Source: Bacillales bacterium UBA6380
Lineage (GTDB): Bacteria; Bacillota_I; Bacilli_A; RFN20; CAG-826
Direction: 5' to 3'
DNA: 64,000 nucleotides
Assembly (NCBI GenBank): GCA_002438785.1
Contig: DJQS01000007.1
Span: 6,194 to 70,193, forward strand
Shown here: positions 1-63,511 of the stretch, in pieces
Position numbering within the stretch: the first letter of the stretch is position 1
Layout of the letters: every line of letters starts with the position of its first letter
The notes under the pieces: generated by a model
Seen by the model: the letters and a program-made list of their open reading frames with translations, nothing else
Database searches by the model: none
What the model was told of the DNA's origin: nothing
Translations under genes and position numbers: made by a program

Positions 1-1
1 T

Positions 2-11543: not shown

Positions 11544-11584
11544 CCGTTTAGAGTGATGTATATGACTAAGGAGGTATAAAGAAA

Positions 11585-22083: not shown

Positions 22084-22093
22084 GGGGGGGGGG
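22084..22093. repeat. G10 homopolymer tract in promoter region
   Basis: tacGGGGGGGGGGttaat; 30 bp upstream of the AAAGGAGGAAG RBS of the 22124 gene; extreme outlier in 27% GC DNA. Confidence 0.9.
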
Positions 22094-22123
22094 TTAATAT
22101 TATAAAAAAAGGAGGAAGAAAAA

Positions 22124-22609: not shown

Positions 22610-22628
22610 TTAAGTTTAATTATTTTAT

Positions 22629-22670
22629 AAAAAGAACTATCAAATATTTTTTAAATTTGATAGTTCTTTT
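22629..22670. terminator. bidirectional rho-independent terminator
   Basis: AAAAAGAACTATCAAA / TTTGATAGTTCTTTT perfect 15-bp stem flanked by A- and T-runs, between convergent genes. Confidence 0.55.
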
Positions 22671-22708
22671 ATTAAGTAGTTAAGATTATCTAAATTTATT
22701 TTAAGATA

Positions 22709-25768: not shown

Positions 25769-25907
25769 AAATTTCTCCCTTTTAGAGAATTTTATTAATT
25801 TTTGGAGTGAGTATTCTATCAATAATCTGTAAATTAAATGTAAATAACTTATATAAATATATATTTTATGTAATTAAAATTAATATAAAATAATGTTAGA
25901 GGTTAAT

Positions 25908-26306
25908 ATGAAAAACATAAATGTTGTTGCTGCAATAATTATTAAAAATAATAAAATATTCATTACACAAAGAGGATATGGAGAATTTAAGGATTATTGG
26001 GAGTTTCCGGGTGGCAAAATTGAAAATGGAGAAACTAAAGAAGAAGCCCTTATTAGAGAAATAAAAGAAGAGCTTAATACTAATATTACCGTCAAGAAAT
26101 TATTAACTATAGTCGAGTATGATTATCCTAAGTTTCATTTAACTATGTCATGTTTTATATGTAATTTTGAAGATAATAATTTTAATTTAGTCGAAGCTGA
26201 AGACTATAGATTTATAGATGTTAATGAATTAGATTCGATTAATTTTTTACCAGCTGATATTTTAACTATTAAAAAAATAAAGCAATATTTTAATGAGAAT
26301 CAATAA
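25908..26306 (+). CDS. NUDIX hydrolase (MutT-like)
   Basis: Nudix box GGKIENGETKEEALIREIKEELN; start refined to MKNINVV. Confidence 0.7.
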   Translation: MKNINVVAAIIIKNNKIFITQRGYGEFKDYWEFPGGKIENGETKEEALIREIKEELNTNITVKKLLTIVEYDYPKFHLTMSCFICNFEDNNFNLVEAEDYRFIDVNELDSINFLPADILTIKKIKQYFNENQ

Positions 26307-41253: not shown

Positions 41254-41730
41254 ATGTTCTTAGAAAAGTTTTTTTATTCATTTATTATGAGTTTACCAGT
41301 TGTTATTACAACAATTGGTATTTTGATTTTTTTATTTATTAAATTTAAAAAGACTAGAACTTTAATTTTAGGAATAACATTATTTTATTTTTCCTTATTT
41401 TTTATATATTTAATTTATTCGTATAACTGTAATATTTTTAATATAACTTTTATTAAAAAAATAAAAGCAATACTAAAAATTACTCTTAATATAGTTACAT
41501 TATTTAATGAATATCTTTTATATTTTTTAAATAATGGTTTTGTTTATATATTAATTAGTTTTGTATTTAGTATAACTTTTGTTTTTGCTATTAAAATTAT
41601 TATTATTCTTAATTTAATTGATAAAAAGCCTTCTAAAGTTAAACTATTTATTAAAAAAATTTCATTTTTAATTTTTAATAAAGAAGAATTTAATATATTT
41701 AAAAACCCTTTTTATAATCTTAGATGTTAG
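41254..41730 (+). CDS. small membrane protein (158 aa), function unknown
   Basis: Three or four hydrophobic segments; very AT-rich. Confidence 0.35.
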   Translation: MFLEKFFYSFIMSLPVVITTIGILIFLFIKFKKTRTLILGITLFYFSLFFIYLIYSYNCNIFNITFIKKIKAILKITLNIVTLFNEYLLYFLNNGFVYILISFVFSITFVFAIKIIIILNLIDKKPSKVKLFIKKISFLIFNKEEFNIFKNPFYNLRC

Positions 41731-41778: not shown

Positions 41779-44700
41779 ATGAATAAAAAAATAGTTTTTT
41801 TAACCTTTTGTAGTGTAGCTTGCTTATTTAGCTGTACTAATAAAAAAGACGTAAACGAAGATATTAAAAATATTTATAAAGATATAAGTAACGGAAATAA
41901 ATTAAAGGCGTTTATTATTAAAGATAATAATTATTATATTTTTGAAAATTCAACAGACATTATTTCCTTAGGAAGATTTGATGAATCAACATATAGTTTT
42001 GATAATTCAAATGATTTTGGTTTTATTCTTCCTAGTAGTGGAGTGATTAATTATGATGATTTAAGCATAAGTAATATTTCTAAATTAATTGTCAATTATA
42101 AAAGTAAAGAGATTTATTCTTTTATTGATTATAATACTAAAGCTCTATCTAAAATATATAATAGTAATAATTTCGATAATTTATATTTTTATAATGATTT
42201 TAATAATGAAAAATTTAGTAATGGATATGAAGTAAATCTAAAAATTGATAATTATAATAAAATTAGTTGTGAAGATATAAGGGAGTATTATTTAAATAGT
42301 TTTAACAAATATAATGATTTAAAAGAAATAGATTCCTTATATAAAAATATCAGCATCAGCGATGAGTTTAATGGTAAAAAAGTTGTTTCTATTGGTAACT
42401 TATCTAATACTTTAAAATCTTTAAAAATAGATAACATTAATTTTACATTTTCAAATAACATTGAAAATGTAAGTGAAGATGCTTTTAATGGACTAAAATT
42501 TAATAATGATTTAAATCTGAGTAACAATCTTATAAATATCGAAGATAACGCGTTTAAAAATAGTCAGATAAATAAATTACTTGTTCATGATAAAAAGATT
42601 AATTATAAAGATTCAAGCTTTTTAAATTTAAAATTAAATGAAATTAATTTTGATCATGAGGATTCAAATAATTTAAATTTAATAGATGATTTTATCTCTG
42701 ATAATTATGATTTAAAAGTAACAATTAATAATTTATATTATGATAAATTTACAAAGATAAAGGAAATATATAAAAAAGCTACAAATAACGAAATAAATAC
42801 TAAAGCATACTTAGTTAAAAATAATCATTATTATGTGTTTGATGGAATTGATAAAATTACTCAATTGGGTATTTTTGATTTAGACAAAAATGAATTTAGT
42901 AATAGTAATGAATTTGGTTTTATTCTTCCTAGCAGTGGAACAATTAATTATGATTCAAGTAATGTTTTAGAGTGCTCAAAATTATTAGTTAATTTAAATA
43001 ATAAAAATATTTATTCTTATATTAATTTAGACGGTGAGATTTCTAACGATTATAATGGTAATAATTTTGATAATCTATATTTTTATGGTGATTCAAGTAA
43101 TAATGACATTAGTAATGGATATGAAGTTAGTTTAAAAATTGATAATTATTTAAAAATTAGTAACGAAGAAGTTCGTAATTATTATTTGAATAATTTCCTA
43201 TCATATAATGATTTAAAAGATCAAAAAGACATAAAAAAGTTATATGAAAAGATTATATTAAAAAATGATTTTAATAATAAAAATGTTGTAGCTATTGGTA
43301 ATTTTTCTAAAGTATTAAAAGAACTCGGATTAACTAGTATTAATTTAAATTTAAGTGAAAATATTGAGTATATTAAAGAAGATGCATTTAATGGAATTAG
43401 CTTTAATAATGAAGTTTTGACATTAAATAAAAAACTTAAAAATATTGATATAAGGGCATTTGCTTATTCGAATATTTATACTCTATATGTTTACGATAAT
43501 GAAATTGAATTTTATTATGAAACATATAATAAATTCACTCATAAATTTAGACCATTTGAGGATGATAGTTTTTATGAAGCAAATGTTAAAAATATTCATT
43601 TTGAAACATATAATTCAGGCAATAGTTTATTATCTAATTATTTAGCTGGCAATAATAGTGAATTAATTATTAAATGTGGAAAAAATCTAAATTCTAAATA
43701 TTATGACTCAATAAGTGAGGGCTTAAACATAGAAAAAACAATTAATCCACTTTGTGACTTAAAAGATATTTCAAATAATGTAATTGGAGATAATAATTTA
43801 ACACTAGTAGATACTAATGAAAGCTTAATTTTATCTATTAAAAATAAACTTGATGATGGAAATCTTTATAATGGATCTAATGTTAGAGAATACGGAACTT
43901 TAGATGCTAAAACTGCTAATTCTATACCTAATATGTTAAGTAGCGACTTTGTTAATAAATATACTAAAAATGTTTATACATTAAAATTAAAAAACGATCT
44001 AACAATTAAAGGAAAAGTTTATGTTGGAGCTACTATTAATAGCGAAGCTCAAAGAAATCAAGGATATATTACAGGTGACTATGTTACTCTCGATTTAAAT
44101 GGGCATAATGTTTATATCGAAGATGGTGGAGTATTAGAAAGTAGTGGCTATATTATTGATAGTAGTGCAAATCAAAGTGGTATGATTGAAATCAAAAATG
44201 GTGGCACATTATCGACAAATTTTAATGTAGAAGATTATAGTGGTGGTCAAATTACAAAGAATAGATATGACAAAAATGTTAGTCCTTTCAATTTATTTAA
44301 ATTAGGATATTTGCAAGTTAATACTAAAATAAATAAAGGTGGTAAGCTTAATGGACTTTGCGTTTTGTACGCTTCATATTCTCAAAATGAAGCAATTCAA
44401 ACTATCATTGGAGAAGACGGCTTATTTGATATTAGTTCTAATGATGGATATATCATTAAAAGAGCAAAATTCATTAATAATGAATATGATGGAATTGATC
44501 ATTATGAAATATATGGTGATTGCAAAACTAATTCAATGACTTTAAGAGTTGGAGCTATTGCTTTAAGTACATCAAAATTATTTTTACCATTAACTAGATT
44601 TCAAACAATCGATATCTATAAAGGTAAATTTACCATGAACACAAAATTAAAAGTGCTTCCAGGAACAGAAGTTAATGTTTATAATGGCGCTACTTTAGTT

Positions 44701-45105
44701 ATTAATGAAAACGTTATAATTTATGAAGAATATAAAACACAAGCTGAGGTTGGTGTAAATTATTTTGCAAATTATTGTGATTATTATGCTAGTTCAAAAT
44801 ATGATAAAGATAATATTAATCAAGGGCAAATAAATTTCTATAATGGTTCTAATTTAATAGTAAATGATGGAAATGGAATTAATGGTTTAATAAATGTGGA
44901 AGATAATAATGTCTTAGAGGTAATTAAAAATATGTATGAAAATACTAATTTTAATAATAAATTAGAGTCTATTGAAAGCGATGGAACTACCACATATTAC
45001 ATAGCTGCATCAAGCAATATAACTAAATATTATAAAGATTTAAAAGATAAAATATCATTAATTTCTACTATTAAAGAAGAAGATCACAAAGTAATAACTG
45101 CTTAA
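41779..45105 (+). CDS. large surface lipoprotein with tandemly duplicated about 300-aa modules (BspA-type LRR-like) and C-terminal beta-helix-like domain
   Basis: Lipobox VACLFSC; res about 40-335 and about 340-640 are paralogous (KAFIIKDNNYYIFEN...FGFILPSSGVINYDD versus KAYLVKNNHYYVFDG...FGFILPSSGTINYDS); Gly/Asn-rich repetitive C-terminus. Confidence 0.55.
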   Translation: MNKKIVFLTFCSVACLFSCTNKKDVNEDIKNIYKDISNGNKLKAFIIKDNNYYIFENSTDIISLGRFDESTYSFDNSNDFGFILPSSGVINYDDLSISNISKLIVNYKSKEIYSFIDYNTKALSKIYNSNNFDNLYFYNDFNNEKFSNGYEVNLKIDNYNKISCEDIREYYLNSFNKYNDLKEIDSLYKNISISDEFNGKKVVSIGNLSNTLKSLKIDNINFTFSNNIENVSEDAFNGLKFNNDLNLSNNLINIEDNAFKNSQINKLLVHDKKINYKDSSFLNLKLNEINFDHEDSNNLNLIDDFISDNYDLKVTINNLYYDKFTKIKEIYKKATNNEINTKAYLVKNNHYYVFDGIDKITQLGIFDLDKNEFSNSNEFGFILPSSGTINYDSSNVLECSKLLVNLNNKNIYSYINLDGEISNDYNGNNFDNLYFYGDSSNNDISNGYEVSLKIDNYLKISNEEVRNYYLNNFLSYNDLKDQKDIKKLYEKIILKNDFNNKNVVAIGNFSKVLKELGLTSINLNLSENIEYIKEDAFNGISFNNEVLTLNKKLKNIDIRAFAYSNIYTLYVYDNEIEFYYETYNKFTHKFRPFEDDSFYEANVKNIHFETYNSGNSLLSNYLAGNNSELIIKCGKNLNSKYYDSISEGLNIEKTINPLCDLKDISNNVIGDNNLTLVDTNESLILSIKNKLDDGNLYNGSNVREYGTLDAKTANSIPNMLSSDFVNKYTKNVYTLKLKNDLTIKGKVYVGATINSEAQRNQGYITGDYVTLDLNGHNVYIEDGGVLESSGYIIDSSANQSGMIEIKNGGTLSTNFNVEDYSGGQITKNRYDKNVSPFNLFKLGYLQVNTKINKGGKLNGLCVLYASYSQNEAIQTIIGEDGLFDISSNDGYIIKRAKFINNEYDGIDHYEIYGDCKTNSMTLRVGAIALSTSKLFLPLTRFQTIDIYKGKFTMNTKLKVLPGTEVNVYNGATLVINENVIIYEEYKTQAEVGVNYFANYCDYYASSKYDKDNINQGQINFYNGSNLIVNDGNGINGLINVEDNNVLEVIKNMYENTNFNNKLESIESDGTTTYYIAASSNITKYYKDLKDKISLISTIKEEDHKVITA

Positions 45106-53481: not shown

Positions 53482-53784
53482 ATGGATAAAAAATGTTGTA
53501 CAAATAATATAAAAGTAACAATAAGAGGAGATGATGAGAAAAAGCAAATTATTTCTAGAATAAATAGGATTATTGGACAGATAGAAGGAATTAAGAAAAT
53601 GGTTAATAATGATCGCTATTGCGATGATATATTAATTCAACTTTCAGCAGTTGATAAATCAGTTAAAAGTTTAGCTAATTCTATTTTAGATAGGCATTTG
53701 CATACCTGTATTGTTGATAATATTAAAAAAGGAAATTACGAAATTTTAGACGAGATTAGTGAGCTTTTTAGGAGATTTCAATGA
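53482..53784 (+). CDS. csoR: CsoR/RcnR-family metal-sensing repressor
   Basis: 100 aa; RINRIIGQIEGIKKMV ... C...H...C ligand pattern; 4-nt overlap with copA. Confidence 0.7.
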   Translation: MDKKCCTNNIKVTIRGDDEKKQIISRINRIIGQIEGIKKMVNNDRYCDDILIQLSAVDKSVKSLANSILDRHLHTCIVDNIKKGNYEILDEISELFRRFQ

Positions 53785-56276
53785 AAAAAATATTTGATGT
53801 TAAGGGAATGACATGTGCTAGTTGTCAAGCTCATGTTGATAATGCAGTTAGAAAAATTAAAGGTGTAAAAGATGTAAATGTATCTCTTTTAAATAACACT
53901 ATGGAGGTAGATTATGATGAAAAATGTGTTGATGATCAAGATATAGAAAATGCTGTTAAAAAAGCGGGATATAAGGCCTTTAGTCAAGATAAAAAAGGTA
54001 ATAAGGGAGTAAATGAAAATAATGATTATTCTTTATTAAAATTAATAATAGCAATTACCTTTTTAATATTATTAATGTATGTTTCAATGGGCCATATGAT
54101 TAATTTACCAATGCCTAAGTTTTTAAAAATTTCAACGCATGAAGAAATGATAAAAAATTCATTAATTTTTGCTTTTACTCAATTTTTATTAACGTTGCCA
54201 TCAATTTTTATTTATCGAAATTATTTTATTAACGGTTATAAAAGATTATTTAAACTATCGCCAAATATGGATAGTCTTATAGCATTAGGAAGTAGTGCTA
54301 GTTTAATTTATGGAGTTATTGCTATATTTATGATTGGATATGGATTAGGGTATAACAATTATGATTTAGTTATGCAATATGTCCATAATATTTATTTTGA
54401 AAGTGCGGCAACAATTTTAACCTTAGTTAGTTTAGGGAAATATTTAGAGGGATTATCTAAAAGAAAAACTACTGACAATGTAAAAAAGATGTTAGACTTA
54501 GTTCCTAAAAAAGCAACTATATTTATTAATAATGAGGAAACAACTATACCAGTTAACGAAATTAAAATTAATGATATTGTTGTTGTAAAAAAAGGAGAAC
54601 AGGTGCCTATTGATGGAGAAATTATCGAAGGATCGGGTTCTTTTAATGAATCTAATATTACAGGTGAATCAATGCCTGCTTATAAAAAAAGCAATGATTT
54701 TGTTTATTCTTCTACAATATTAGAATCAGGCTATGTAAAAATAAAGGCAAAAAAAATTGGTGATGATTGTTCTATTAATACAATTATAAAATTAGTCGAA
54801 GAAGCTGCTAATTCTAAAGCTCCTATATCAAAACTTGTTGATAAAATATCTTTATTCTTTGTACCTATAATAATCTTAATTTCACTAGTTGTTTTTATTT
54901 TTTATTTATCTTTTAATTATAGTTTTAATGATGCGTTTAATTATGCAATTAGTGTCTTAGTTATTGCCTGTCCATGTGCTCTAGGCTTAGCAACTCCAGT
55001 TGCTATAATGGTAGGAACAGGAAAAGGTGCTCAGCTTGGTCTTCTTATAAAAAATGCTGAGATATTAGAAAATGCGCATCGTATAAAAACAATTGTTTTA
55101 GATAAAACAGGTACAATTACTATGGGTAAGCCATGTGTTACAGACTTCATTGTATTTAAAAAAGAGGATGATTTACTTTCTAAAATATATTCATTAGAAA
55201 TTAAAAGTGAGCATCCTTTAGCAAATGCTATTATTAGTTATGTTAAATTAAAAGAAAGTAATATTATTAATTATCACGTAGTTAACTATCAAGCGATAGA
55301 AGGAGTTGGTGTTTCAGGTTACATAAATAATGATTTTTATCAAATAGGTAATATAAGGTGTCTTAAAGATAAAAATTATATAAATGATAAAATAGACAAA
55401 TTATCTTTAGAAGGAAAAACTACTTTAGTAATCGTAAAAAATAATGAAGTTATTTCTTTAATATCTTTGAAAGATATTATTAGAAAAGATTCTAAAGAGG
55501 CCATTAGGTTATTAAAGAATAAAGGCATAAAAATAATTATGCTAACAGGAGATAATGAATTAACAGCAAAAAATATTGCTAAAGAAGTTGATATTAATGA
55601 AGTTAGAGCTAATGTATTGCCTATTGATAAAGAGAAAATAATAAAAGATATTCCCCATAATAAAAATAATTTAGTTGCAATGGTTGGAGATGGTGTTAAT
55701 GATGCTTTAGCTTTAACAACTAGTGATATAGGAATAGCAATTGGCGGTGGTACAGATATTGCAATAGAATCTAGTGATATTGTTTTGATTAGAAATAGCT
55801 TATTAGATGTTCTTAACGTTATAAATTTATCTAAAAGGGTTTATTTTACGATAATAGGTAATTTATTTTGGGCTTTTATTTATAATTGCATTGGTATTTT
55901 ATTTGCAACTGGGATGTTTGTGCCACTACTTGGTGAAAATTTTAAATTGTCTCCAATGATTGGATCAGCATGTATGGCATTTAGTTCTATATTTGTGGTA
56001 TTGAATGCTTTAACAATTAATTTATTTAAACCAAAGGCTTATAATAATAAAAAAGTAAATGGAGAAATTTCTAATATGGAAAAAATTGAACTTAATGTAA
56101 ATGGTATGATGTGCATGCATTGTGTAAAACATGTTAAAGAAGCTTTATTAAGTTGTAATGGTGTAAAGCATGTTGATGTTTATTTAGATAGTAAAAAAGC
56201 CATCATCGAAGGTAATAATCTTTCTAAAGACAAGTTAATTAATGCAGTTAAAAATGCAGGATACGATGCATTTTAA
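53781..56276 (+). CDS. copA: copper-translocating P-type ATPase with N- and C-terminal HMA domains
   Basis: GMTCASCQ and GMMCMHCV metal-binding motifs, CPC (ACPCALGLATP), DKTGT phosphorylation site, GDGVNDA. Confidence 0.85.
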   Translation: MKKIFDVKGMTCASCQAHVDNAVRKIKGVKDVNVSLLNNTMEVDYDEKCVDDQDIENAVKKAGYKAFSQDKKGNKGVNENNDYSLLKLIIAITFLILLMYVSMGHMINLPMPKFLKISTHEEMIKNSLIFAFTQFLLTLPSIFIYRNYFINGYKRLFKLSPNMDSLIALGSSASLIYGVIAIFMIGYGLGYNNYDLVMQYVHNIYFESAATILTLVSLGKYLEGLSKRKTTDNVKKMLDLVPKKATIFINNEETTIPVNEIKINDIVVVKKGEQVPIDGEIIEGSGSFNESNITGESMPAYKKSNDFVYSSTILESGYVKIKAKKIGDDCSINTIIKLVEEAANSKAPISKLVDKISLFFVPIIILISLVVFIFYLSFNYSFNDAFNYAISVLVIACPCALGLATPVAIMVGTGKGAQLGLLIKNAEILENAHRIKTIVLDKTGTITMGKPCVTDFIVFKKEDDLLSKIYSLEIKSEHPLANAIISYVKLKESNIINYHVVNYQAIEGVGVSGYINNDFYQIGNIRCLKDKNYINDKIDKLSLEGKTTLVIVKNNEVISLISLKDIIRKDSKEAIRLLKNKGIKIIMLTGDNELTAKNIAKEVDINEVRANVLPIDKEKIIKDIPHNKNNLVAMVGDGVNDALALTTSDIGIAIGGGTDIAIESSDIVLIRNSLLDVLNVINLSKRVYFTIIGNLFWAFIYNCIGILFATGMFVPLLGENFKLSPMIGSACMAFSSIFVVLNALTINLFKPKAYNNKKVNGEISNMEKIELNVNGMMCMHCVKHVKEALLSCNGVKHVDVYLDSKKAIIEGNNLSKDKLINAVKNAGYDAF

Positions 56277-56397: not shown

Positions 56398-59259
56398 ATG
56401 GAAAAAAATGTAATTAAAGTTATTGGCGCTAAAGAAAACAATTTAAAAAATGTTTCTTTAACTATCCCTAAAGATAAGTTAGTTGTTTTTAGTGGTGTTA
56501 GTGGTAGTGGCAAGTCAACCCTTGCATTTGACACTATTTTTGCTGAGGGTCAAAGAAGATATGTTGAATCTTTATCTAGCTATGCTAGACAATTTTTGGG
56601 AAATTTTGAAAAACCAGATGTAGAAAGTATCGAAGGTTTATCACCTGCCATTTCAATTGATCAAAAATCTACTTCTCATAATCCCCGTTCAACGGTTGGT
56701 ACTGTAACTGAGATTTATGATTATTTACGTTTACTTTTTGCTAGAGTTGGTGTGCCATATTGTCCAACACATAATATTCCAATTGTGGCTTTTTCACTTC
56801 AAAAGATTACTGATATCATTATGAATTATCCTAAAGGCAGTAAGGTACAGATATTATCGCCTATTGTTAGAAACGAAAAAGGAACACATAAAGATACGTT
56901 AGATAAAATAAAAGAAAATGGTTTTAGTCGTGTTAGAATTGATAATGAAGTTTGTTTTATTGAAGAGGTAAAACCTTTAGATAAAAATAAAAGACATAAT
57001 ATTGACATAATAATTGATCGTCTTGTTATTAAAGATGATATAAGACCAAGAGTTTTTGAAGCTTGTGAATTAGCAAGTGACTGGGCAAATGGTTTTGTAT
57101 TAGTTTTATGTGGAGAAGAGGAAAAATTATTTAGTGAACATAATGCGTGTCCAATTTGTGGATTCACTGTTCCTAAACTTGAGCCACGTTTATTTTCTTT
57201 TAATTCTCCATTAGGATGCTGTCCTTCATGTAATGGATTAGGTATTAAGCAAGAAGTTGATATCGATTTATTAGTTCCTGATAAAAATTTAAGCATAAAT
57301 GATGGAGCTATCTTGTTTTTTAAAAACACAGTTAATTCTTCTAATATTGACTGGCAAAATTTTGATCAATTATTGCGATATTATCACATACCTAAAGATA
57401 TACCTTTTAAAGATTTAACAAAAGACGATGTTGATTATATAATGAACGGATCTAAAGAACCAATTTCTTATAGTATTACGACTATCAGTGGTAATGTCAT
57501 GAAAAAAAATAATTTTATAGAAGGTCTTAAAACTAAAATTGAGAGATTGTTTAAAGAAACGACTAGCGAATTTAATCGTGAATATTATTCTAAATTTTTA
57601 CGTGATAATGTTTGTACCACTTGCCATGGAGCCCGCTTATCGAAAGAGGCTTTAAGTGTAAAAGTAGCTGGTTTAAATATTTATGAGGTTACTTGTTTAT
57701 CTCTTGATAGACTTTATGAATGGATAAATAATTTAAACAAAACCTTTACTCCATCTCAAATTACAATTGCAGAACTTGTTATAAATGAATTAAAAAATAG
57801 AGTTAAATTCTTAATCGATGTTGGTCTTGAATATTTAACATTGTCGAGAATGTCTATGACTTTGTCTGGAGGAGAAAGTCAAAGAATTAGACTTGCTACT
57901 CAAATTGGTTCTAAATTAAGTGGTGTTTTGTATGTTTTAGACGAACCATCAATTGGTTTGCACCAAAAAGATAGTGAAAAACTTATTAATTCTTTAAAAG
58001 AAATGCGCGATTTAGGTAATACTTTGATTGTTGTAGAACATGATGAGGAAATGATTAGAAGTGCAGATTATATTGTAGATGTAGGGCCTGGGGCTGGTGT
58101 ACATGGTGGTGAAATAGTTGCTTGTGGAAGTTTAAAAGACATTGAAAATGCTCCTAAAAGCATTACTGGTGCATATTTAAGTGGTAGAAAATATATTCCA
58201 GTTCCATTAAGTCGAAATAAAGGTAATGGCAAGTTTATTACTATTAAAGGATGTAGTACAAACAATTTAAAAAATATTGATGTTAAATTTCCACTTGGAG
58301 AATTTATTTGTGTTACAGGTGTTAGTGGAAGTGGAAAGTCAAGTTTAGTTAATGAAACTTTATATTTAGGAATTTTAAAAGAATTAGAACATCAAGATGT
58401 AATTCCAGGAAAATATAAATCTTTAGAAGGACTTGAAAATATTGATAAAGTAATTAATATTTCGCAAGAACCTATTGGTAGAACCCCACGTAGTAATCCT
58501 GCAACCTATGTTAAAGCTTTTGATGATATTAGAGATATATTTGCTAATACTATCGAGGCTAAGGCTAGAGGCTTTGATAAATCTCGATTTAGTTTTAATA
58601 TGCCTGGAGGGCGTTGTGAACATTGTCAAGGCGCTGGCGTAACTAGAATTCCAATGAATTTTTTGCCAGATGTTTATGTTAAATGCGATGAATGTGATGG
58701 AAAGCGATATAATAGTCAAACTTTATTATGTACATATAAAGGTAAAAATATTTATGATGTTTTAGAAATGACAATCGATGACGCTTATGAATTTTTTAAA
58801 AATCATTATTCGCTAGCAAGAAAGTTAAAGACTTTAATTGATGTTGGTTTGGGCTATATGAAACTTGGTCAACCTGCAACTACTTTATCAGGTGGTGAAG
58901 CTCAACGTGTAAAACTTGCTTATTATTTGCAAAAAAGACCAACCGGTAAGACTTTATATATATTAGATGAACCAACAACAGGTTTGCATGTTGATGATGT
59001 AAATAGATTATTAAAAGTATTAGAGACAATTGTGAATAATGGTGATACATTATTAGTAATTGAACATAATTTAGATGTTATTAAAATGGCTGACTATATT
59101 ATTGATATTGGGCCTGATGGTGGAGACAAAGGTGGGCAAATTGTTGCAACTGGAACGCCTGAAGAAGTTAGCAATAATTTAAATAGTTATACTGGAAAAT
59201 ATTTAAAGAATATATTAGAAAAAGATAAACTAAGAAAGGAGAAAATTAATGATGCATAA
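56398..59259 (+). CDS. uvrA: excinuclease ABC subunit A
   Basis: Two ABC modules (GVSGSGKS twice, LSGGE signatures), zinc fingers CPICGF...CPSC and CEHCQGAG...C; start refined to MEKNVIKVIG. Confidence 0.9.
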   Translation: MEKNVIKVIGAKENNLKNVSLTIPKDKLVVFSGVSGSGKSTLAFDTIFAEGQRRYVESLSSYARQFLGNFEKPDVESIEGLSPAISIDQKSTSHNPRSTVGTVTEIYDYLRLLFARVGVPYCPTHNIPIVAFSLQKITDIIMNYPKGSKVQILSPIVRNEKGTHKDTLDKIKENGFSRVRIDNEVCFIEEVKPLDKNKRHNIDIIIDRLVIKDDIRPRVFEACELASDWANGFVLVLCGEEEKLFSEHNACPICGFTVPKLEPRLFSFNSPLGCCPSCNGLGIKQEVDIDLLVPDKNLSINDGAILFFKNTVNSSNIDWQNFDQLLRYYHIPKDIPFKDLTKDDVDYIMNGSKEPISYSITTISGNVMKKNNFIEGLKTKIERLFKETTSEFNREYYSKFLRDNVCTTCHGARLSKEALSVKVAGLNIYEVTCLSLDRLYEWINNLNKTFTPSQITIAELVINELKNRVKFLIDVGLEYLTLSRMSMTLSGGESQRIRLATQIGSKLSGVLYVLDEPSIGLHQKDSEKLINSLKEMRDLGNTLIVVEHDEEMIRSADYIVDVGPGAGVHGGEIVACGSLKDIENAPKSITGAYLSGRKYIPVPLSRNKGNGKFITIKGCSTNNLKNIDVKFPLGEFICVTGVSGSGKSSLVNETLYLGILKELEHQDVIPGKYKSLEGLENIDKVINISQEPIGRTPRSNPATYVKAFDDIRDIFANTIEAKARGFDKSRFSFNMPGGRCEHCQGAGVTRIPMNFLPDVYVKCDECDGKRYNSQTLLCTYKGKNIYDVLEMTIDDAYEFFKNHYSLARKLKTLIDVGLGYMKLGQPATTLSGGEAQRVKLAYYLQKRPTGKTLYILDEPTTGLHVDDVNRLLKVLETIVNNGDTLLVIEHNLDVIKMADYIIDIGPDGGDKGGQIVATGTPEEVSNNLNSYTGKYLKNILEKDKLRKEKINDA

Positions 59260-60721
59260 TTTTTTATATTATTCTGGATTAATCTTGATATTAGGGTCTA
59301 TAATATGTTCTTATTTATTTATAAATTTTACAAATAAAGAAAAAAATATTTCTGATTTGCAGATTATTTTAAAAAAAACATGGGTTTTTGGTTTACTTGG
59401 AATCAGCTTATTTGCACTAGCTTTTATCTTACTAGATTGGGCTTTTTTTATAGATGAGGCTACATTAAATAATTTAAAGACTCTTAATAAGAGTTTAAAT
59501 CCGGGTTTAGTTTTCTTATCTTTCTTTTTTGGGAGTTTGTTTGTAATTGCTATACACATATTTGCTTATAGTTTTTATTTTTATTGGTATTTTCCAAAAG
59601 AAGAAAAGAAGAGAAGGAAATTATTTTTGGTAATTTATACTTTAAGTGCTGTTATAGCCTTTATTTCTTTTATATTATTTAGTGAAGGAAACGCTCAATA
59701 TTTGATTTATCCTTTAGCTAATATTGTACATATTGGTAAGGGAGGATTTTTTGTTTTAACTAGAAATGGTAGTGAATTATCACAAGAAGGAGGACTAAAT
59801 ATTGCCTTATATGCTTTATGCATTTTATCAGGTGCAATTTTAGTTTTATTTATTTGCGATCATTTTACTTATAAATATTATGGTAAACATGGCCTTTTAT
59901 ATACTTGTTTTCTATTTGCCTTTCCTAGCGGAATAATTGGGGCACGACTTTGGTATGTTTGTATCGACATCGGAGATAATGGAGTTAATAGTCAATTTAT
60001 TCAAAGACCTCTTTCAATTTTTGAAATTTGGAACGGAGGACTTGCAATAATGGGCGGAGCTATATTGGGCATTATTGTTGGTGTCTCTGTGATACTTATT
60101 TATAAATATGCTTTAAAAAATAAAGACTATACAAAAATTAATTTATTATTTTTAGTAGATTATATAATTCCTACAATTCTAATTGCACAAGCCATTGGAA
60201 GATGGGGGAATTTCTTTAATAATGAAGTTAATGGAAATTTATACGATATTAAATATTTTAATTGGCTTCCAACATTTATTAGAAATCAAATGCAATATGC
60301 AAATCATGCTACTTGGGGAAGTAATATTGATCATCCTGGAATGATTTATTTGCCTTTATTTTTTATTGAATTTTGTACGAATCTAATTGGTTATTTTACT
60401 ATTTATTTTGGATTTGGGCGTGGTAATTTTAGTAAACTTATTATCTCATTAATAAATAAAATAAAACCTGGATTGATCAAAGCAAAATTTTATCATCCAA
60501 ATGGAGCTTGTGTTGGTGGATATTTAATTTGGTATGGAACAACACGTATAATTTTAGAGCCTTTAAGAACGGGAAGTGATTTTTATAAATCTAGTTTATA
60601 TAGTGCTTATGGAATGGTATTTTCAGGTATATTGATAATTATAATAGCGATATTATGGGATTATTTTATAACACGTAAAGGTGTTAAAAATATTATTTTA
60701 AAAGATGAAGATTTAAATTAA
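59249..60721 (+). CDS. lgt: prolipoprotein diacylglyceryl transferase with about 160-aa N-terminal membrane extension
   Basis: Lgt signature AIGRWGNFFNNEVNG and IWNGGLAIMGG in the C-terminal two-thirds; 490 aa versus about 270-300 typical. Confidence 0.75.
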   Translation: MMHNFLYYSGLILILGSIICSYLFINFTNKEKNISDLQIILKKTWVFGLLGISLFALAFILLDWAFFIDEATLNNLKTLNKSLNPGLVFLSFFFGSLFVIAIHIFAYSFYFYWYFPKEEKKRRKLFLVIYTLSAVIAFISFILFSEGNAQYLIYPLANIVHIGKGGFFVLTRNGSELSQEGGLNIALYALCILSGAILVLFICDHFTYKYYGKHGLLYTCFLFAFPSGIIGARLWYVCIDIGDNGVNSQFIQRPLSIFEIWNGGLAIMGGAILGIIVGVSVILIYKYALKNKDYTKINLLFLVDYIIPTILIAQAIGRWGNFFNNEVNGNLYDIKYFNWLPTFIRNQMQYANHATWGSNIDHPGMIYLPLFFIEFCTNLIGYFTIYFGFGRGNFSKLIISLINKIKPGLIKAKFYHPNGACVGGYLIWYGTTRIILEPLRTGSDFYKSSLYSAYGMVFSGILIIIIAILWDYFITRKGVKNIILKDEDLN

Positions 60722-60734: not shown

Positions 60735-61382
60735 ATGATAAAAGTTATAATTTTCGATATGGATGGAACTATTGTTGACACTGATGAAGTTTTAAGACTT
60801 ACTTGGTATAAGGTTTTTGAAAAGTTTTATAATAATAAACATTACGTTAGTGATGATGTTATTAAAACTTTTAGCGGACCTAGTTTAAAAGAAACTATTA
60901 ATAAATATTTTCCTAATTTTTCTTTTAATGAAGTGAAAGATGTTTATTCGAATTCTTCTTTTGAATATTATGAAAAATATGCTAATGTTTTTCCTGATGA
61001 ACTTGAAGTGTTAAAAAAATTAAAAGATGATGGTTATAAATTGGCTGTATTTACTAATAAGAATAAAGAGAGAGCTTTATATTGTCTAAATAAATTAAGT
61101 TTAAATAAATATTTTTCATATTTAGTTTCTGGTGATGATGTAAAACATAATAAGCCAAATAAAGAGGGCATTGATAAAATTTTAAACTATTATAAAATAA
61201 AAACAGATGAAGCTATTTTAATAGGTGATACAATTTATGATTATAATGCTGCTTTTAATGGAGGCGTTAAATGCATTCTATTAAAAGTTGCTTCTAGAAT
61301 ATTTCCTAAAAATCTTAAACCTATTGGAATTTATACTACATATATGGATTTATATAAAGGGATAAAAGAATATGACAATTAA
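60735..61382 (+). CDS. HAD hydrolase (PpaX/phosphoglycolate phosphatase-like)
   Basis: IIFDMDGTIVDT motif I; position after lgt matches the hprK-lgt-ppaX synteny of Firmicutes. Confidence 0.55.
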   Translation: MIKVIIFDMDGTIVDTDEVLRLTWYKVFEKFYNNKHYVSDDVIKTFSGPSLKETINKYFPNFSFNEVKDVYSNSSFEYYEKYANVFPDELEVLKKLKDDGYKLAVFTNKNKERALYCLNKLSLNKYFSYLVSGDDVKHNKPNKEGIDKILNYYKIKTDEAILIGDTIYDYNAAFNGGVKCILLKVASRIFPKNLKPIGIYTTYMDLYKGIKEYDN

Positions 61383-62298
61383 AAAAGATATCGCTATTAT
61401 TGGAACAGGTGTTGCTGGAATGAGTGCAGCTATTTACTTAGCTCGAACTAAATATACTTTTGAAATATTTGAAAAAAGTGCTATAGGTGGTAAATTAAAT
61501 ATAATAAATAAAATTGAGAATTATCCTGGAGTAAAAGATATATCTGGATTTGATTTGGCTATGGATTTTATTAATCAACTCAAGTCTCTAGATGTAAGTG
61601 TAAATAATACTGAAATTTTAAAGATAGAGAAAGACAATAATTTATTTAAATTATATTCAAAAAAAGACACATATGTTGTGAAAGCAGTTATTATTGCTAC
61701 TGGTATGCAAATTAAAAAACTTGGATTAGCTAATGAAGAGTCTTTTATTGGAAAAGGTATAAGTTATTGTGCTACTTGTGACGGATTTTTTGCTAAGGAT
61801 AAGACAGTTTTACTTTACGGAAATGAAGATCGTGCTTATCTTGAAGCTTTGTTTTTAGTTGGTCTAGTTAAAAAGTTATATTTTGTTCATGATAATAATT
61901 GTGAAATAACTGATAACTTTGAAAAATTGATAAAATATCCTAATGTAATTGAAATTTGTGGGTATAAAATTTCTGCTTATAATGGTGTAGGTCATTTAGA
62001 GAGCGTAACTATCAAAAAGTCGCAAAAAGAGAAAACATTCGAAGTTTCGATGGTTTTTCCATTATCAAAAGAAATTCCTAATAATTATTTATTTAGTGGA
62101 ATTGGTTTAAATAATAAAGATAAATTCATTTCGACTGATGAGGATTGTAAAACGAGTATTGATGGTGTTTATGCAATCGGTGATATAAGAAAGAAAAAAT
62201 TAAAACAAGTTGTTACTGCGGCTAGCGATGGAGCAATTGCTGCGACAGCTGTTATTAAATATTTATTAAGTTTAAAGAAAGATGAACAAGATAAATAG
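61372..62298 (+). CDS. thioredoxin-reductase-like flavoprotein lacking the canonical NADPH-binding motif
   Basis: FAD GxGxxG (IIGTGVAGMSAA), redox CATCDG, C-terminal GDIR...Q..TA.SDGAIAA retained; where TrxB has VGGGDSA...HRRD this protein has LLYGNEDRA...VHDNN. Confidence 0.65.
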   Translation: MTIKKDIAIIGTGVAGMSAAIYLARTKYTFEIFEKSAIGGKLNIINKIENYPGVKDISGFDLAMDFINQLKSLDVSVNNTEILKIEKDNNLFKLYSKKDTYVVKAVIIATGMQIKKLGLANEESFIGKGISYCATCDGFFAKDKTVLLYGNEDRAYLEALFLVGLVKKLYFVHDNNCEITDNFEKLIKYPNVIEICGYKISAYNGVGHLESVTIKKSQKEKTFEVSMVFPLSKEIPNNYLFSGIGLNNKDKFISTDEDCKTSIDGVYAIGDIRKKKLKQVVTAASDGAIAATAVIKYLLSLKKDEQDK

Positions 62299-63244
62299 TT
62301 TTTCTAAAGAAATTAAAGAAGAGTTAACTCTTAGTTGGATCGATGTTACTAGCGAGTTAAGAATTTCCTTATTATCTGCATTTATTAGAGTTAATGGAAC
62401 TATTTCATTTGCAAATAAAAAAGAGAATTTAACACTTGAGGCTGAAAATGCTCAAGTTATTAAGTTTATATATAAGAATTTAAAGGACATGTTTAATGGT
62501 ATTGATATTCATTTTTATTTTCAAAGATCGATGAAACTAAAGAAGAATACAAAATATATTATTGAGATTTTAGATGCTTCTAATATAATTAAAGCCTTTC
62601 ATATTAATTTTTTAGATAATAAAATTCCTTATTCTTTAACAAGCAAAGAAGATAAGATAAAAGCGTATTTAACTGGACTATTTTTATCAAATGGATCATG
62701 CAACGATCCTATTAATACAAATTATCATTTGGAAATTTCTTTGAAAAGCGAAGATTTTGCAAAGGCTATTTTAAAGGTTATTCAAAAAATAAAAAGCAAA
62801 GAATTCAACTTTAAACTTATTCAAAGAAGAAATAATTATGTAATCTATATTAAGAAATCAGATCAAATTAGTGATTTTTTAAATTTTATCGATGCAAATG
62901 AAGCATGTTTAAAATTTGAAAATGTTCGTATGGATCGTGATATATCTAATGTTACTAATAGGCTTATAAATTGTGATGAGTATAATTATTCTAAAATTAT
63001 TTCTAATTCTCAAAAGCAAATTAAGATGATTGATTTTATTGATAAAAATTTAGGTATTAAAAATATTAACAATACTAAGGTTAAAAATTTGTGCATTTTA
63101 CGTAAAGAATTTCCAGAAGCTTCTTATAATGATTTGTCGATTGAGTTGTCTAAAGTAGTAGAACAAAAGGTGAGCAAAAGCAATATTAACCACTTATTTA
63201 GGAAAATAAATGAATTAGCAAAGAGGCTTAATTATGAAGATTAG
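62282..63244 (+). CDS. whiA: DNA-binding sporulation/cell-division regulator WhiA
   Basis: 320 aa; LAGLIDADG-like segments (LTGLFLSNGSC) and C-terminal HTH; conserved position after trxB. Confidence 0.8.
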   Translation: MNKINSFSKEIKEELTLSWIDVTSELRISLLSAFIRVNGTISFANKKENLTLEAENAQVIKFIYKNLKDMFNGIDIHFYFQRSMKLKKNTKYIIEILDASNIIKAFHINFLDNKIPYSLTSKEDKIKAYLTGLFLSNGSCNDPINTNYHLEISLKSEDFAKAILKVIQKIKSKEFNFKLIQRRNNYVIYIKKSDQISDFLNFIDANEACLKFENVRMDRDISNVTNRLINCDEYNYSKIISNSQKQIKMIDFIDKNLGIKNINNTKVKNLCILRKEFPEASYNDLSIELSKVVEQKVSKSNINHLFRKINELAKRLNYED

Positions 63245-63467
63245 TGATATCAATGTTAATTATGAATTTGGTAAAAGAATTAGATATTTAAGGAAGAAAG
63301 AAAATATTTCGATTGAAGAACTAAGTTTTCGTTCTAATATTAATAGAAATTATCTTGGCGATTTAGAAAGAGGAAAAAGAAATCCTACATTAATAGTTAT
63401 TGAAAAAATTGCAATTGGCTTAAATATTACCTTAGAAGAATTGTTTGCAGGTATTGGAATAAAATAA
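63234..63467 (+). CDS. XRE-family HTH protein
   Basis: 77 aa; IEELSFRSNINRNYLGDLERGKRNP HTH. Confidence 0.55.
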   Translation: MKISDINVNYEFGKRIRYLRKKENISIEELSFRSNINRNYLGDLERGKRNPTLIVIEKIAIGLNITLEELFAGIGIK

Positions 63468-63511
63468 AAAGGGCTATTCTTTTAAATAACCCTTTAAAAA
63501 TCGATTATTTT

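What the first reader, a model, noticed from the sequence alone, without database searches (positions are those of the whole stretch)
61372..62298. TrxB-like flavoprotein with intact CATCDG redox site but degenerate NADPH-binding motifs
Alignment against canonical TrxB shows the FAD GxGxxG, the CATCDG dithiol and the C-terminal GD(I/V)R...TA.(G/S)DG..AA retained. The second dinucleotide-binding motif VxxGGG(D/N)(S/T)A is replaced by LLYGNEDRA, and the HRRD 2'-phosphate-binding motif by VHDNN. The same loss pattern defines the ferredoxin/flavodoxin-dependent flavin thioredoxin reductases described in clostridia, which use a non-NADPH electron donor. The gene sits in the conserved trxB position directly before whiA. 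If it is the only TrxR in the genome, the organism's thioredoxin system would be NADPH-independent.
Basis: partly seen in the sequence, partly recalled or inferred. Interest (0 to 1): 0.5.

Follow-up and report, generated by a model that had tools for sequence, protein, structure and literature searches.

The report
Thioredoxin reductase without an NADPH site
An uncultured gut or rumen bacterium carries, at the usual housekeeping position, a well-conserved thioredoxin reductase that has lost both NADPH-binding motifs, so it probably draws electrons from a ferredoxin- or flavodoxin-type carrier; this is a new lineage of an already known kind of enzyme.

Summary
ORF 61372-62298 (+, 308 aa) has a low-Mr thioredoxin reductase fold. 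It keeps the FAD motifs, C133-A-T-C136-D137 and the thioredoxin-docking K128/F139/F140. GGGxxA is replaced by G150-N-E-D-R-A and HRRD by H173-D-N-N.

This is not decay. About 20 relatives at 45-75% identity form a clade (NJ bootstrap 84) with its own conserved replacements: Y156, invariant D174 and D/E178. The former NADPH domain is as conserved as the FAD domain. dN/dS is 0.15.

The gene lies in a translationally coupled uvrA-lgt-HAD-trxB-whiA-HTH operon. A related MAG with canonical GGGNTA/HRR keeps the same locus, so the housekeeping trxB most likely changed in place.

The same MAG encodes a pyruvate:ferredoxin/flavodoxin oxidoreductase. In three relatives that gene sits directly upstream of uvrA.

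NAD(P)H independence is likely. However, the protein is not demonstrably a clostridial FFTR: it lacks that enzyme's deletions, it matches NTRs best, and the tree backbone is unresolved. The donor is unknown, and whether this is the only TrxR could not be tested. NADH use remains a live rival, as shown by the Thermoplasma enzyme.

Verdict: a new variant of a known kind, of moderate interest.

The parts
61372..62298 (+). trxB-like gene (308 aa, = P0001 = NCBI HBS10360.1): low-Mr thioredoxin-reductase fold without NAD(P)H motifs
   Evidence: ORF. Pfam PF07992 only. TIGR01292 264 bits, below the 343 cut-off. Best PDB matches are NTRs. AF2 model has pLDDT 91 and TM 0.85 to FR-state TrxRs.
61402..61419 (+). 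FAD-binding GxGxxG (G11-T-G-V-A-G16), retained
   Evidence: Alignments. G11, G13 and G16 are invariant in the clade.
61768..61791 (+). Redox-active C133-A-T-C136 with acid-base D137, followed by the Trx-docking F139-F140 (K128 lies upstream)
   Evidence: The K/R + FF triad is the low-Mr TR-Trx interface (PMC5627308).
61816..61839 (+). Degenerate former NADPH glycine loop, Y149-G-N-E-D-R-A-Y156 (canonical vGGGDSAv). Y156 is clade-specific.
   Evidence: AF2 keeps the beta1-loop-alphaA geometry (E145-150, H153-163).
61888..61908 (+). Former 2'-phosphate site, H173-D-N-N-C-E-I179 (canonical HRRDxxR). The charge is reversed: D174 is invariant and D/E178 is conserved in the clade.
   Evidence: D 20/20 against R 21/21 at position 174; D/E 20/20 against R/K 21/21 at position 178..
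62179..62241 (+). C-terminal FAD motif G270-D...T282-A-A-S-D-G-A-I-A-A290, retained
56398..59259 (+). uvrA, first gene of the operon; overlaps lgt
   Evidence: Pfam UvrA_inter, UvrA_DNA-bind.
59249..60721 (+). lgt (prolipoprotein diacylglyceryl transferase)
   Evidence: PF01790.
60735..61382 (+). HAD phosphatase (PpaX-like); overlaps the trxB start by 11 nt
   Evidence: NCBIfam PpaX scores 122 bits, below its cut-off.
62282..63244 (+). whiA; overlaps the trxB end by 17 nt
   Evidence: WhiA_N, LAGLIDADG_WhiA, HTH_WhiA.
63234..63467 (+). Small XRE-type HTH regulator, last gene of the operon. It is conserved after whiA in relatives.
63468..63495 (.). Hairpin plus T-run between the operon end and the convergent gene (terminator-like)

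Best explanation
This gene is the housekeeping thioredoxin reductase of an uncultured low-GC Bacilli lineage (labelled near 'Candidatus Onthovivens' / 'Mollicutes bacterium' in public records). In this lineage it has lost pyridine-nucleotide binding while staying in its ancestral locus.

Proposed mechanism:
1. Pyruvate:ferredoxin/flavodoxin oxidoreductase reduces a low-potential protein carrier, either a ferredoxin or a flavodoxin-like protein.
2. The carrier reduces the enzyme's FAD in one-electron steps.
3. The domain rotation typical of low-Mr TrxRs brings C133/C136 over the flavin.
4. The resulting dithiol reduces thioredoxin docked on K128/F139/F140.

What is shown:
- Both NAD(P)H motifs are lost.
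- The FAD, CxxC-Asp and Trx-interface residues are retained.
- The fold is that of a low-Mr TrxR.
- The whole protein is under purifying selection.
- The gene is at the orthologous locus.
- PFOR is present in the same MAG.

What is inferred:
- That NAD(P)H is not used.
- That a protein carrier is the donor, and which one.
- That thioredoxin is the substrate.
For: Motifs:
- G152 is Glu, G151 is Asn, and both Arg of HRR plus the distal Arg are lost.
- There is no PF00070 hit, and TIGR01292 is below its cut-off.

Not a relic:
- The clade (P0001-P0032, P0043, P0123) has NJ bootstrap 84.
- In the clade the central domain has pairwise identity 0.50 against 0.54 for the FAD domain. Canonical enzymes show 0.46 against 0.47.
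- The replacement residues are themselves conserved: Y156 19/20, D174 20/20, D/E178 20/20.
- dN/dS against the 75%-identical orthologue is 0.15 overall and 0.23 for the central domain. Two strain variants differ at 11 and 13 sites, all synonymous.

Catalytic apparatus:
- C133, C136, D137, G11/G13/G16 and D286/G287 are invariant. K128 and F139/F140 are kept.
- The AF2 model has pLDDT 91 and pTM 0.80. It superposes on FR-state TrxRs at TM 0.83-0.87.

Orthology and change in place:
- uvrA-lgt-(HAD)-trxB-whiA-HTH is found in the window and in motif-less relatives L089, L090, L091, L093 and L009.
- The same order holds in a relative with canonical GGGNTA/HRR (L051), in Ureaplasma (L031) and, more loosely, in Bacillaceae.

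Electron source:
- A nifJ-type PFOR lies directly upstream of uvrA in L090, L091 and L093.
- In the window's organism PFOR is HBS10517.1 on DOKH01000094.1 of the same MAG as HBS10360.1.
- The PFOR contig and the trxB contig have matching coverage in two metagenomes: 26 vs 28x and 4.0 vs 3.3x.

Precedent: FFTRs with the same motif loss are ferredoxin-dependent (PMC8154056; PMC10880999).
Against: - There are no biochemical data.
- No ferredoxin, classical flavodoxin or thioredoxin gene was found in the window or in any related locus.
- The segment that replaced the NADPH site is net acidic: residues 148-186 carry -3.2 against +0.7 in canonical enzymes. If the carrier docked there, that would disfavour the usual acidic ferredoxins and flavodoxins. 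The GvFFTR-Fdx complex is described as electrostatically driven.
- D174 sits one residue past the end of beta2, close to where NAD-specific Rossmann folds carry their ribose-binding acid (own knowledge). NADH use is therefore conceivable.
- Thermoplasma TrxR, which lacks HRRxxxR, proved to be NADH-dependent.
- A second, canonical TrxR elsewhere in the genome was not excluded.
Confidence: 0.55

Rival explanations
1. It is an NADH-dependent thioredoxin reductase. The HRR-to-xD change switched specificity from NADPH to NADH, as in Thermoplasma acidophilum TrxR, and the dinucleotide still binds despite the altered glycine loop.
For: - There is an invariant Asp (D174) immediately after strand beta2. 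NAD-specific Rossmann folds carry an acid at about this position (own knowledge).
- TaTR lacks HRRxxxR, was first called pyridine-nucleotide independent and was later shown to use NADH (PMC6262447).
- Neighbouring lineages show an intermediate state with GxGxxA kept and HRR lost: Ureaplasma L031, P0089 and L081. Of the 150 nearest 50%-identity representatives, 59 are in that state.
Against: - The glycine loop itself is destroyed. The Gly that contacts the pyrophosphate is Glu/Ser/Asn across the clade, and the first Gly is Ala in 16 of 20 members.
- That TaTR retains a GxGxxG loop is from memory only; it was not retrieved here (one search did not show it).
- There is no PF00070 match.
Confidence: 0.15
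2. It is a member by descent of the clostridial FFTR family and works exactly like it, with a 2x[4Fe-4S] ferredoxin as donor. On this reading it is not an independent conversion of the housekeeping NTR.
For: - In the NJ tree the FFTR 6gna falls inside the broad, unresolved assemblage of motif-less sequences next to this clade.
- Some of those neighbours share FFTR-like replacements. Examples are VGYEDHA / YF(L/F)xP in P0031, P0035, P0036 and P0056, against VGYNKEA / YYVP in 6gna.
- Several of them sit in the same lgt-trxB-whiA locus.
Against: - Support for that grouping is 1-2% bootstrap.
- P0001 scores 108-113 bits to 6gna/6gnc/6gnd against 161-163 bits to NTRs.
- 6gna has a roughly 10-residue deletion after beta2, further deletions, SSDLSKK in place of GGK, and GDCTGKPY-QYMKAVGEG in place of GD..LKQVVTAASDG. 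P0001 shares none of these.
- There is no trxA partner gene next to it, unlike C. difficile trxA1B1.
Confidence: 0.12
3. It is no longer a thioredoxin reductase. It would be a TrxR-fold flavoprotein with another role, for example a dithiol oxidase of the GliT/DepH type, or a reductase for another disulfide substrate.
For: - TrxR-fold enzymes without NADPH sites that oxidise dithiols do exist. GliT 4ntc is a distant hit at E 1e-09.
- NCBI names the 46%-identical P0023 only 'FAD-dependent oxidoreductase'.
Against: - The Trx-interface residues K128, F139 and F140 are conserved.
- The gene occupies the housekeeping trxB locus in a core-gene operon, not a biosynthetic cluster.
- Similarity to GliT-type proteins is far lower than to TrxRs.
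- The source samples are taken here to be anaerobic gut or rumen metagenomes. That is an inference from the labels of related MAGs; the samples' own descriptions were not retrieved.
Confidence: 0.08
4. It is an ordinary NADPH-dependent TrxB and the motif loss is only apparent, caused by misalignment or a sequencing or assembly error. Alternatively, it is a decaying pseudogene.
For: NCBI annotates HBS10360.1 as thioredoxin-disulfide reductase.
Against: - HMMER and MAFFT alignments agree, and no register restores GxGxxA or HRR.
- The identical protein comes from many independent assemblies.
- The replacements are conserved across the clade, and dN/dS is 0.15.
Confidence: 0.03

Closest known systems
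[quoted passage not shown]
   Same: - Low-Mr TrxR fold with FAD and CxxC.
- Both GxGxxA and HRRxxxR are lost.
- Found in an anaerobic Firmicute that makes low-potential reductant with PFOR.
- No C-terminal aromatic tail.
   Different: - Only 108-113 bits to the FFTR structures, against 161-163 bits to NTRs.
- Lacks the FFTR deletions and keeps NTR-type GGK and TAASDG motifs.
- Sits in the housekeeping lgt-trxB-whiA operon rather than a trxA-trxB operon, and is not an extra paralogue beside an NTR.
- Has its own conserved replacements: Y156, D174, D/E178.
- The donor is untested.
Cyanobacterial FFTR, formerly DTR (Gloeobacter violaceus, PDB 5J60 / 6XTF)
   Same: It is pyridine-nucleotide independent by motif loss. 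In some organisms it is the sole TrxR (PMC8154056).
   Different: DTR has a C-terminal extension whose Trp stacks on the flavin and helps bind plant-type [2Fe-2S] ferredoxin. The protein here ends shortly after the last helix with no aromatic tail.
Canonical low-Mr NADPH-thioredoxin reductase of Firmicutes (e.g. S. aureus 4GCM, S. pyogenes 5UWY, B. cereus 7AAW, L. lactis 5MH4)
   Same: - Best sequence and fold matches: E 1e-46 to 1e-43, 31-34% identity.
- Same length class.
- Same Trx-docking residues.
- Same genomic position relative to lgt and whiA.
   Different: The GGGDSA and HRRDxxR motifs are replaced, and the TIGR01292 equivalog cut-off is not reached.
TRi, the NAD(P)H-independent TrxR of Desulfovibrio vulgaris (PDB 5NII)
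   Same: It reduces Trx but is not reduced by NAD(P)H, its donor is unknown, and it is confined to anaerobes (PMC5627308).
   Different: TRi is defined by a TQ/NGK motif in place of HRRD. The protein here has HDNN or NDNN instead. 5nii is the weakest TrxR hit, at 85 bits.
Thermoplasma acidophilum TrxR (PDB 3CTY), NADH-dependent
   Same: It lacks HRRxxxR and has a similar fold, with TM 0.80-0.81.
   Different: TaTR uses NADH. The enzyme here has in addition lost the glycine loop.

Membership tests
Low-Mr thioredoxin reductase (TrxB, NCBIfam TIGR01292 equivalog) | N-terminal FAD GxGxxG and C-terminal GD...TAxxxG FAD motif | tested here: met
   G11/G13/G16, G270-D271 and T282...D286-G287 are aligned and invariant.
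Low-Mr thioredoxin reductase (TrxB, NCBIfam TIGR01292 equivalog) | CxxC redox dithiol with following Asp in the central domain | tested here: met
   C133-A-T-C136-D137 is invariant in the clade.
Low-Mr thioredoxin reductase (TrxB, NCBIfam TIGR01292 equivalog) | NADPH-binding GxGxxA and HRRxxxR motifs | tested here: not met
   The protein has GNEDRA and HDNNCEI instead. There is no PF00070 hit.
Low-Mr thioredoxin reductase (TrxB, NCBIfam TIGR01292 equivalog) | Score at or above the curated equivalog cut-off | tested here: not met
   264 bits against a cut-off of 343.45.
Low-Mr thioredoxin reductase (TrxB, NCBIfam TIGR01292 equivalog) | Two-domain TrxR fold and Trx-docking K/R + Phe-Phe | tested here: met
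   AF2 pLDDT 91; TM 0.83-0.87 to FR-state TrxRs. K128, F139 and F140 are present (PMC5627308).
Clostridial FFTR | Absence of both NAD(P)H motifs on a TrxR scaffold | tested here: met
   This is the criterion used in PMC10880999.
Clostridial FFTR | Phylogenetic clustering with biochemically characterised FFTRs | tested here: inconclusive
   In the NJ tree 6gna lies in an unresolved bush adjacent to the clade, with 1-2% support. Bit scores favour NTRs, 161-163 against 108-113.
Clostridial FFTR | FFTR-type architecture: about 288-294 aa, a deletion after beta2, and divergent FAD motifs as in 6gna | tested here: not met
   P0001 is 308 aa. It keeps NTR-length segments and the GGK and TAASDG motifs.
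Clostridial FFTR | Reduction by 2x[4Fe-4S] ferredoxin and not by NAD(P)H | not testable with these tools
   This requires enzymology. Only the presence of PFOR in the same MAG was shown.
Cyanobacterial FFTR (DTR) | C-terminal tail with a conserved Trp stacking on the flavin re-face | tested here: not met
   The C-terminus is ...KYLLSLKKDEQDK, with no tail and no aromatic residue. The cyanobacterial L077 protein has a longer C-terminal tail with a Trp (...RKSIRPDWDHS). Definition from PMC8154056.
TRi (Desulfovibrio type) | TQ/NGK motif in place of HRRD | tested here: not met
   HDNN here and (N/S)D(N/K)(N/D) in the clade. Definition from PMC5627308.
NADH-dependent TrxR (Thermoplasma type) | Intact dinucleotide glycine loop, plus loss of the 2'-phosphate arginines | tested here: not met
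   The arginines are lost, but the glycine loop is also destroyed. Part of this definition rests on own knowledge, because the TaTR loop sequence was not retrieved.

The most novel reading that the evidence does not exclude
In this Bacilli lineage the sole thioredoxin reductase is pyridine-nucleotide independent. Its dedicated donor would be the lineage-restricted, uniformly basic Flavodoxin_5 protein (171-177 aa, pI 9.3-9.9 in all 90 homologues). That protein is encoded 5-8 kb downstream of trxB. It would dock on the acidic patch (invariant D174, D/E178, D179) that replaced the HRR site.

The chain would be PFOR, then flavodoxin-like protein, then TrxR, then Trx. This would be a flavodoxin-dependent TrxR, a donor class not yet described. 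It would uncouple thiol redox control from NADPH in a reduced-genome gut bacterium.
Probability: 0.1. Interest if true: 0.7.

Novelty: new variant of a known kind. Interest (0 to 1): 0.45.

Why it matters
Thioredoxin reduction is normally tied to NADPH. The known exceptions (clostridial and cyanobacterial FFTR, TRi, the F420-dependent enzyme) link thiol redox control to other parts of metabolism. A published survey reported a single TrxB in Bacilli and placed the non-NTR forms, as extra copies, mainly in Clostridia and Negativicutes.

Here the positional orthologue of the housekeeping gene itself has lost the NAD(P)H site. The loss is stable across a whole clade of uncultured, host-associated, low-GC Bacilli. 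Neighbouring lineages show intermediate states, with HRR lost and the glycine loop kept.

If confirmed, three things follow:
- It would be a further, probably independent, origin of pyridine-nucleotide-independent TrxR.
- It would be a natural series for studying how the donor switch evolves.
- It shows that 'thioredoxin-disulfide reductase (NADPH)' annotations in such MAGs can be wrong.

It also bears on how reduced-genome fermenters with little NADPH-generating capacity keep ribonucleotide reductase and peroxiredoxins supplied with electrons.

Tried and rejected
It returned 80 diverse TrxRs at 41% identity or less. It did not return the window's genome or its close relatives. It was still useful for synteny (L009, L051, L031, L082) and as tree references.

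2. Getting FFTR sequences from the PDB tool took four searches. L036 and L025 turned out not to be FFTR-like. Only 6gna residues 4-280 were recovered, via P0167.

3. The NJ tree with 100 bootstraps resolved the immediate clade (84%) but not the backbone. No claim of independent or shared origin with FFTR can rest on it. No ML software was available.

4. The attempt to see the Thermoplasma TrxR glycine loop failed. One search did not rank 3cty in the top five, and the two key papers are not held.

5. The search for a second TrxB from the same MAG used accession prefixes of ten related proteins. It gave no information.

6. Six-frame motif scans for thioredoxin, 4Fe-4S ferredoxin, flavodoxin or a second CxxC TrxR found nothing beyond PFOR's own clusters and the Flavodoxin_5 gene. 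This covered the window and 11 related loci.

7. Fold search cannot discriminate the donor class, because all TrxR-fold enzymes match. FFTR structures were not in the top 50.

8. The idea that the central domain is decaying was rejected.

All motif statements were therefore cross-checked against the HMMER alignments to PDB chains.
Full report
THE OBSERVATION

The ORF at 61372-62298 (+) encodes 308 aa. It has an ATG start preceded by AAAGGGA. HMMER alignments to solved thioredoxin reductases and MAFFT alignments with 120 homologues put its residues on the canonical motifs.

Retained:
- FAD GxGxxG: G11-T-G13-V-A-G16.
- Redox site: C133-A-T-C136-D137-G138, followed by F139-F140.
- C-terminal FAD motif: G270-D271...T282-A-A-S-D286-G287-A-I-A-A.

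Lost:
- Opposite vvGGGDSAveEa the protein reads L-Y-G150-N-E152-D-R-A-Y156-L-E-A.
- Opposite vHRRDelRa it reads V-H173-D174-N-N-C-E178-I.

Independent indicators agree. Pfam finds only Pyr_redox_2 and not the small NAD-binding Pyr_redox domain PF00070. The NCBIfam TrxB equivalog TIGR01292 scores 264 bits, below its cut-off of 343.45.

IS IT REAL AND MAINTAINED?

The identical protein is encoded on 17 contigs read from several independent metagenome assemblies. It is also in MAG GCA_003510245.1 as HBS10360.1, annotated 'thioredoxin-disulfide reductase'.

In the homologue list, the closest approximately 43 proteins lack both motifs, and so do several further ones. More distant hits have VVGGGNTA and HRRD.

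A neighbour-joining tree with 100 bootstraps recovers the immediate clade at 84%. That clade contains P0001, P0002, P0003, P0005-P0032, P0043 and P0123.

Within 20 representative members of the clade:
- The former NADPH domain (residues 114-243) has mean pairwise identity 0.50, against 0.54 for the FAD domain. In canonical enzymes the values are 0.46 and 0.47.
- The replacement residues are themselves conserved:
  - The first Gly is Ala in 16/20.
  - The pyrophosphate-contacting Gly is Glu in 10/20, Ser in 5/20 and Asn in 2/20.
  - The residue after the loop is Tyr in 19/20, where canonical enzymes have Val, Leu or Ile.
  - The first Arg of HRR is Asp in 20/20.
  - The distal Arg is Asp or Glu in 20/20.

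Against the 75%-identical orthologue in L089, dN/dS is 0.15 overall and 0.23 for the central domain. Two strain variants differ at 11 and 13 nucleotides without any amino-acid change.

This is a constrained, functional protein with a remodelled site. It is not a decaying gene or an assembly artefact.

CATALYTIC APPARATUS AND FOLD

C133, C136, D137 and the FAD-motif glycines are invariant. The three residues reported to carry most of the low-Mr TR-Trx interface are K128, F139 and F140. These are a Lys/Arg and two Phe (PMC5627308).

An AlphaFold2 model built on the clade alignment has mean pLDDT 91 and pTM 0.80. It keeps the beta-loop-alpha-beta core of the central domain: strand 145-150, helix 153-163, strand 168-173.

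Foldseek against the PDB gives only TrxRs at the top. TM-scores are 0.83-0.87 to structures in the flavin-reducing conformation: 3r9u, 5mh4, 1f6m, 4up3 and 5u63. Fold comparison cannot tell donor classes apart.

GENOMIC CONTEXT

The gene sits in a run of overlapping genes:
- uvrA (56398-59259)
- lgt (59249-60721)
- a PpaX-like HAD phosphatase (60735-61382)
- trxB (61372-62298)
- whiA (62282-63244)
- a small XRE-type HTH gene (63234-63467)

A terminator-like hairpin follows at 63468-63495.

The same order is found around motif-less relatives at 40-75% identity: L089/P0002, L090/P0023, L091/P0047, L093/P0062 and L009. L092/P0035 retains only the trxB-whiA-HTH part.

The same uvrA-lgt-trxB-whiA-HTH order also surrounds a trxB with canonical GGGNTA and HRR in a rumen Bacilli MAG (L051, UvrA 66% identical). 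Ureaplasma (L031) has lgt-trxB-whiA. Bacillaceae have lgt-ppaX...trxB...whiA.

The gene is therefore the positional orthologue of housekeeping trxB. The simplest reading is that the NAD(P)H site was lost in place.

Neighbouring branches show an intermediate state, with the glycine loop kept and HRR lost. Examples are Ureaplasma L031, P0089 and L081. Among the 150 nearest 50%-identity cluster representatives in a 1.8-billion-protein library:
- 47 have both motifs.
- 59 lack only HRR.
- 4 lack only the loop.
- 35 lack both.

Motif erosion is thus common in this part of TrxR sequence space. The clade studied here is one well-defined instance.

WHERE COULD THE ELECTRONS COME FROM?

A nifJ-type pyruvate:ferredoxin/flavodoxin oxidoreductase (about 1188 aa) lies directly upstream of uvrA in three motif-less relatives. 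It is not in the window.

Its 79%-identical orthologue, P0305 = HBS10517.1, is on contig DOKH01000094.1 of the same MAG. It also occurs in the same two metagenomes as the trxB contig, at matching coverage: 26.2 vs 28.3x and 4.0 vs 3.3x. So the organism can generate low-potential reductant.

No small ferredoxin, classical flavodoxin or thioredoxin gene was found in the 64-kb window or in 11 related loci.

The only small redox-carrier-like gene nearby is a Flavodoxin_5 (PF12724) protein of 171-177 aa. It carries an FMN-phosphate-loop-like Y-K-S-N-T-G-F-T. It lies 5-8 kb downstream of trxB in L001, L089 and L090.
- Its family is small: 99 hits in the 5.8-billion-protein search, although that search has word-based sensitivity limits.
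- It appears lineage-restricted, and one member is labelled Ca. Onthovivens.
- All 90 full-length homologues examined are basic, with pI 9.3-9.9.
- Three further clade members share a contig length with a homologue of it.

The TrxR segment that replaced the NADPH site is net acidic: -3.2 over residues 148-186, against +0.7 in canonical enzymes. The charge complementarity is suggestive. However, co-location may simply reflect shared ancestry. Many proteins of this AT-rich genome are basic. Flavodoxin_5 also includes HemG-type proteins of different function; JGI labels two homologues 'menaquinone-dependent protoporphyrinogen IX oxidase'. I keep this as the novel case at low probability.

COMPARISON WITH KNOWN SYSTEMS

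The literature defines non-NTR or FFTR-type enzymes by absence of GxGxxA and HRRxxxR (PMC10880999). It recognises two FFTR classes (PMC8154056):
- The clostridial class has no C-terminal tail and uses 2x[4Fe-4S] ferredoxin.
- The cyanobacterial class has a C-terminal Trp stacking on the flavin and uses [2Fe-2S] ferredoxin.

The protein here meets the motif-loss criterion and has no tail. Beyond that it does not resemble the characterised clostridial enzymes:
- It scores 108-113 bits to 6gna/6gnc/6gnd, against 161-163 bits to the Thermosipho, S. aureus and S. pyogenes NTRs.
- In a multiple alignment, 6gna shows a roughly 10-residue deletion after beta2, further deletions, SSDLSKK instead of GGK, and GDCTGKPY-QYMKAVGEG instead of GD..LKQVVTAASDG. 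P0001 shares none of these.

In the NJ tree, 6gna falls in an unresolved bush of other motif-less sequences next to the clade, with 1-2% support. Common descent with FFTR is therefore neither shown nor excluded.

It is not TRi, which has TQ/NGK in place of HRRD; 5nii is the weakest TrxR hit.

The Thermoplasma enzyme is an important caution. It lacks HRRxxxR, was first reported as pyridine-nucleotide independent and was later shown to use NADH (PMC6262447). Here the invariant Asp just after beta2 is close to where NAD-specific Rossmann folds place their ribose-binding acid (own knowledge). Because of this I give NADH dependence 0.15. The destroyed glycine loop argues against it.

VERDICT

A pyridine-nucleotide-independent thioredoxin reductase is the best explanation (0.55). 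It would be fed by a PFOR-reduced protein carrier.

- Membership in the clostridial FFTR family is not established.
- The donor is unknown.
- The claim that it is the only TrxR could not be tested.

A published survey found one TrxB in Bacilli and described non-NTR forms as extra copies in Clostridia and Negativicutes. A clade of Bacilli in which the housekeeping orthologue itself has switched is therefore a new variant of a known kind. It is of moderate interest and directly testable by simple enzymology.

Noticed in passing
window 1-14480: This is the right-hand end of a siphovirus-type prophage. It holds head-tail connector genes, a 623-aa tape-measure-like protein (2786-4657), Dit (4654-5475), an XhlA-like lysis gene and two tandem large serine recombinases (11585-12886, 12879-14480). 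GC is about 32%, against about 25% for the rest of the window. The same block occurs on many metagenome contigs next to TerL, portal and HK97 capsid genes (composition).
   Followed up: partly
window 17352-29271: A probable defence island lies next to the prophage, mostly on the minus strand and with reversed GC skew. It contains an AAA_14/DUF4143 ATPase (17352-18581), a GmrSD type IV restriction enzyme (19413-21515), and a PLD-nuclease + ResIII helicase + DUF3427 protein (26290-29271). Between them is a 1037-aa protein with four lamin-tail domains (22709-25822).
   Followed up: partly
L001 18146-18679 (about 7 kb beyond trxB, outside the window); also L089 18983-19513 and L090 15825-16340: A lineage-restricted Flavodoxin_5 protein is encoded here. 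It is uniformly basic (pI 9.3-9.9 in 90 homologues), which is unusual because flavodoxins are normally acidic (own knowledge). It lies between an ArsR/HMA/P-type ATPase unit and smpB plus an ECF riboflavin transporter S component.
   Followed up: partly
L031 (Ureaplasma sp. MAG) 6001-6903: The Ureaplasma TrxB in the lgt-trxB-whiA locus keeps a GxGxxA loop (GSGRSA) but has ISNKPEFKA in place of IHRRDxxRA. A cultivable-genus mollicute may therefore also have altered cofactor specificity.
   Followed up: no
L051 (rumen Bacilli MAG) 5739-6632: This is the relative with canonical NADPH motifs in the same operon. It has an aberrant C-terminal FAD motif, RQIYLSEVDAKMASKA instead of RQVVTAASDGAIAA.
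   Followed up: no
PDB 7jyp alignment and loci L013, L025, L084, L086: The solved Thermosipho africanus TrxR, and a group of Oscillospiraceae/Ruminococcus TrxBs, keep GGGxSA but carry VQNL(P/D) instead of HRRD. This is another recurrent HRR-less subtype.
   Followed up: no
window 53482-56276: A csoR-like repressor (53482-53784) and a copA-type P-type ATPase with two HMA domains (53781-56276) lie immediately upstream of uvrA. In more distant relatives PFOR occupies this position.
   Followed up: no
window 41779-45105: A 1108-aa protein has only a faint LRR_5 signal. It is preceded by two ORFs without any Pfam hit (39924-41150, 41254-41730), in the lowest-GC stretch of the window (about 19%).
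   Followed up: no
L009 (CAVGNR010000025.1): This contig is deposited under 'Escherichia coli isolate ... cleanbin'. It carries the low-GC Bacilli uvrA-lgt-trxB-whiA operon with a motif-less TrxB, so the bin label is evidently wrong.
   Followed up: no
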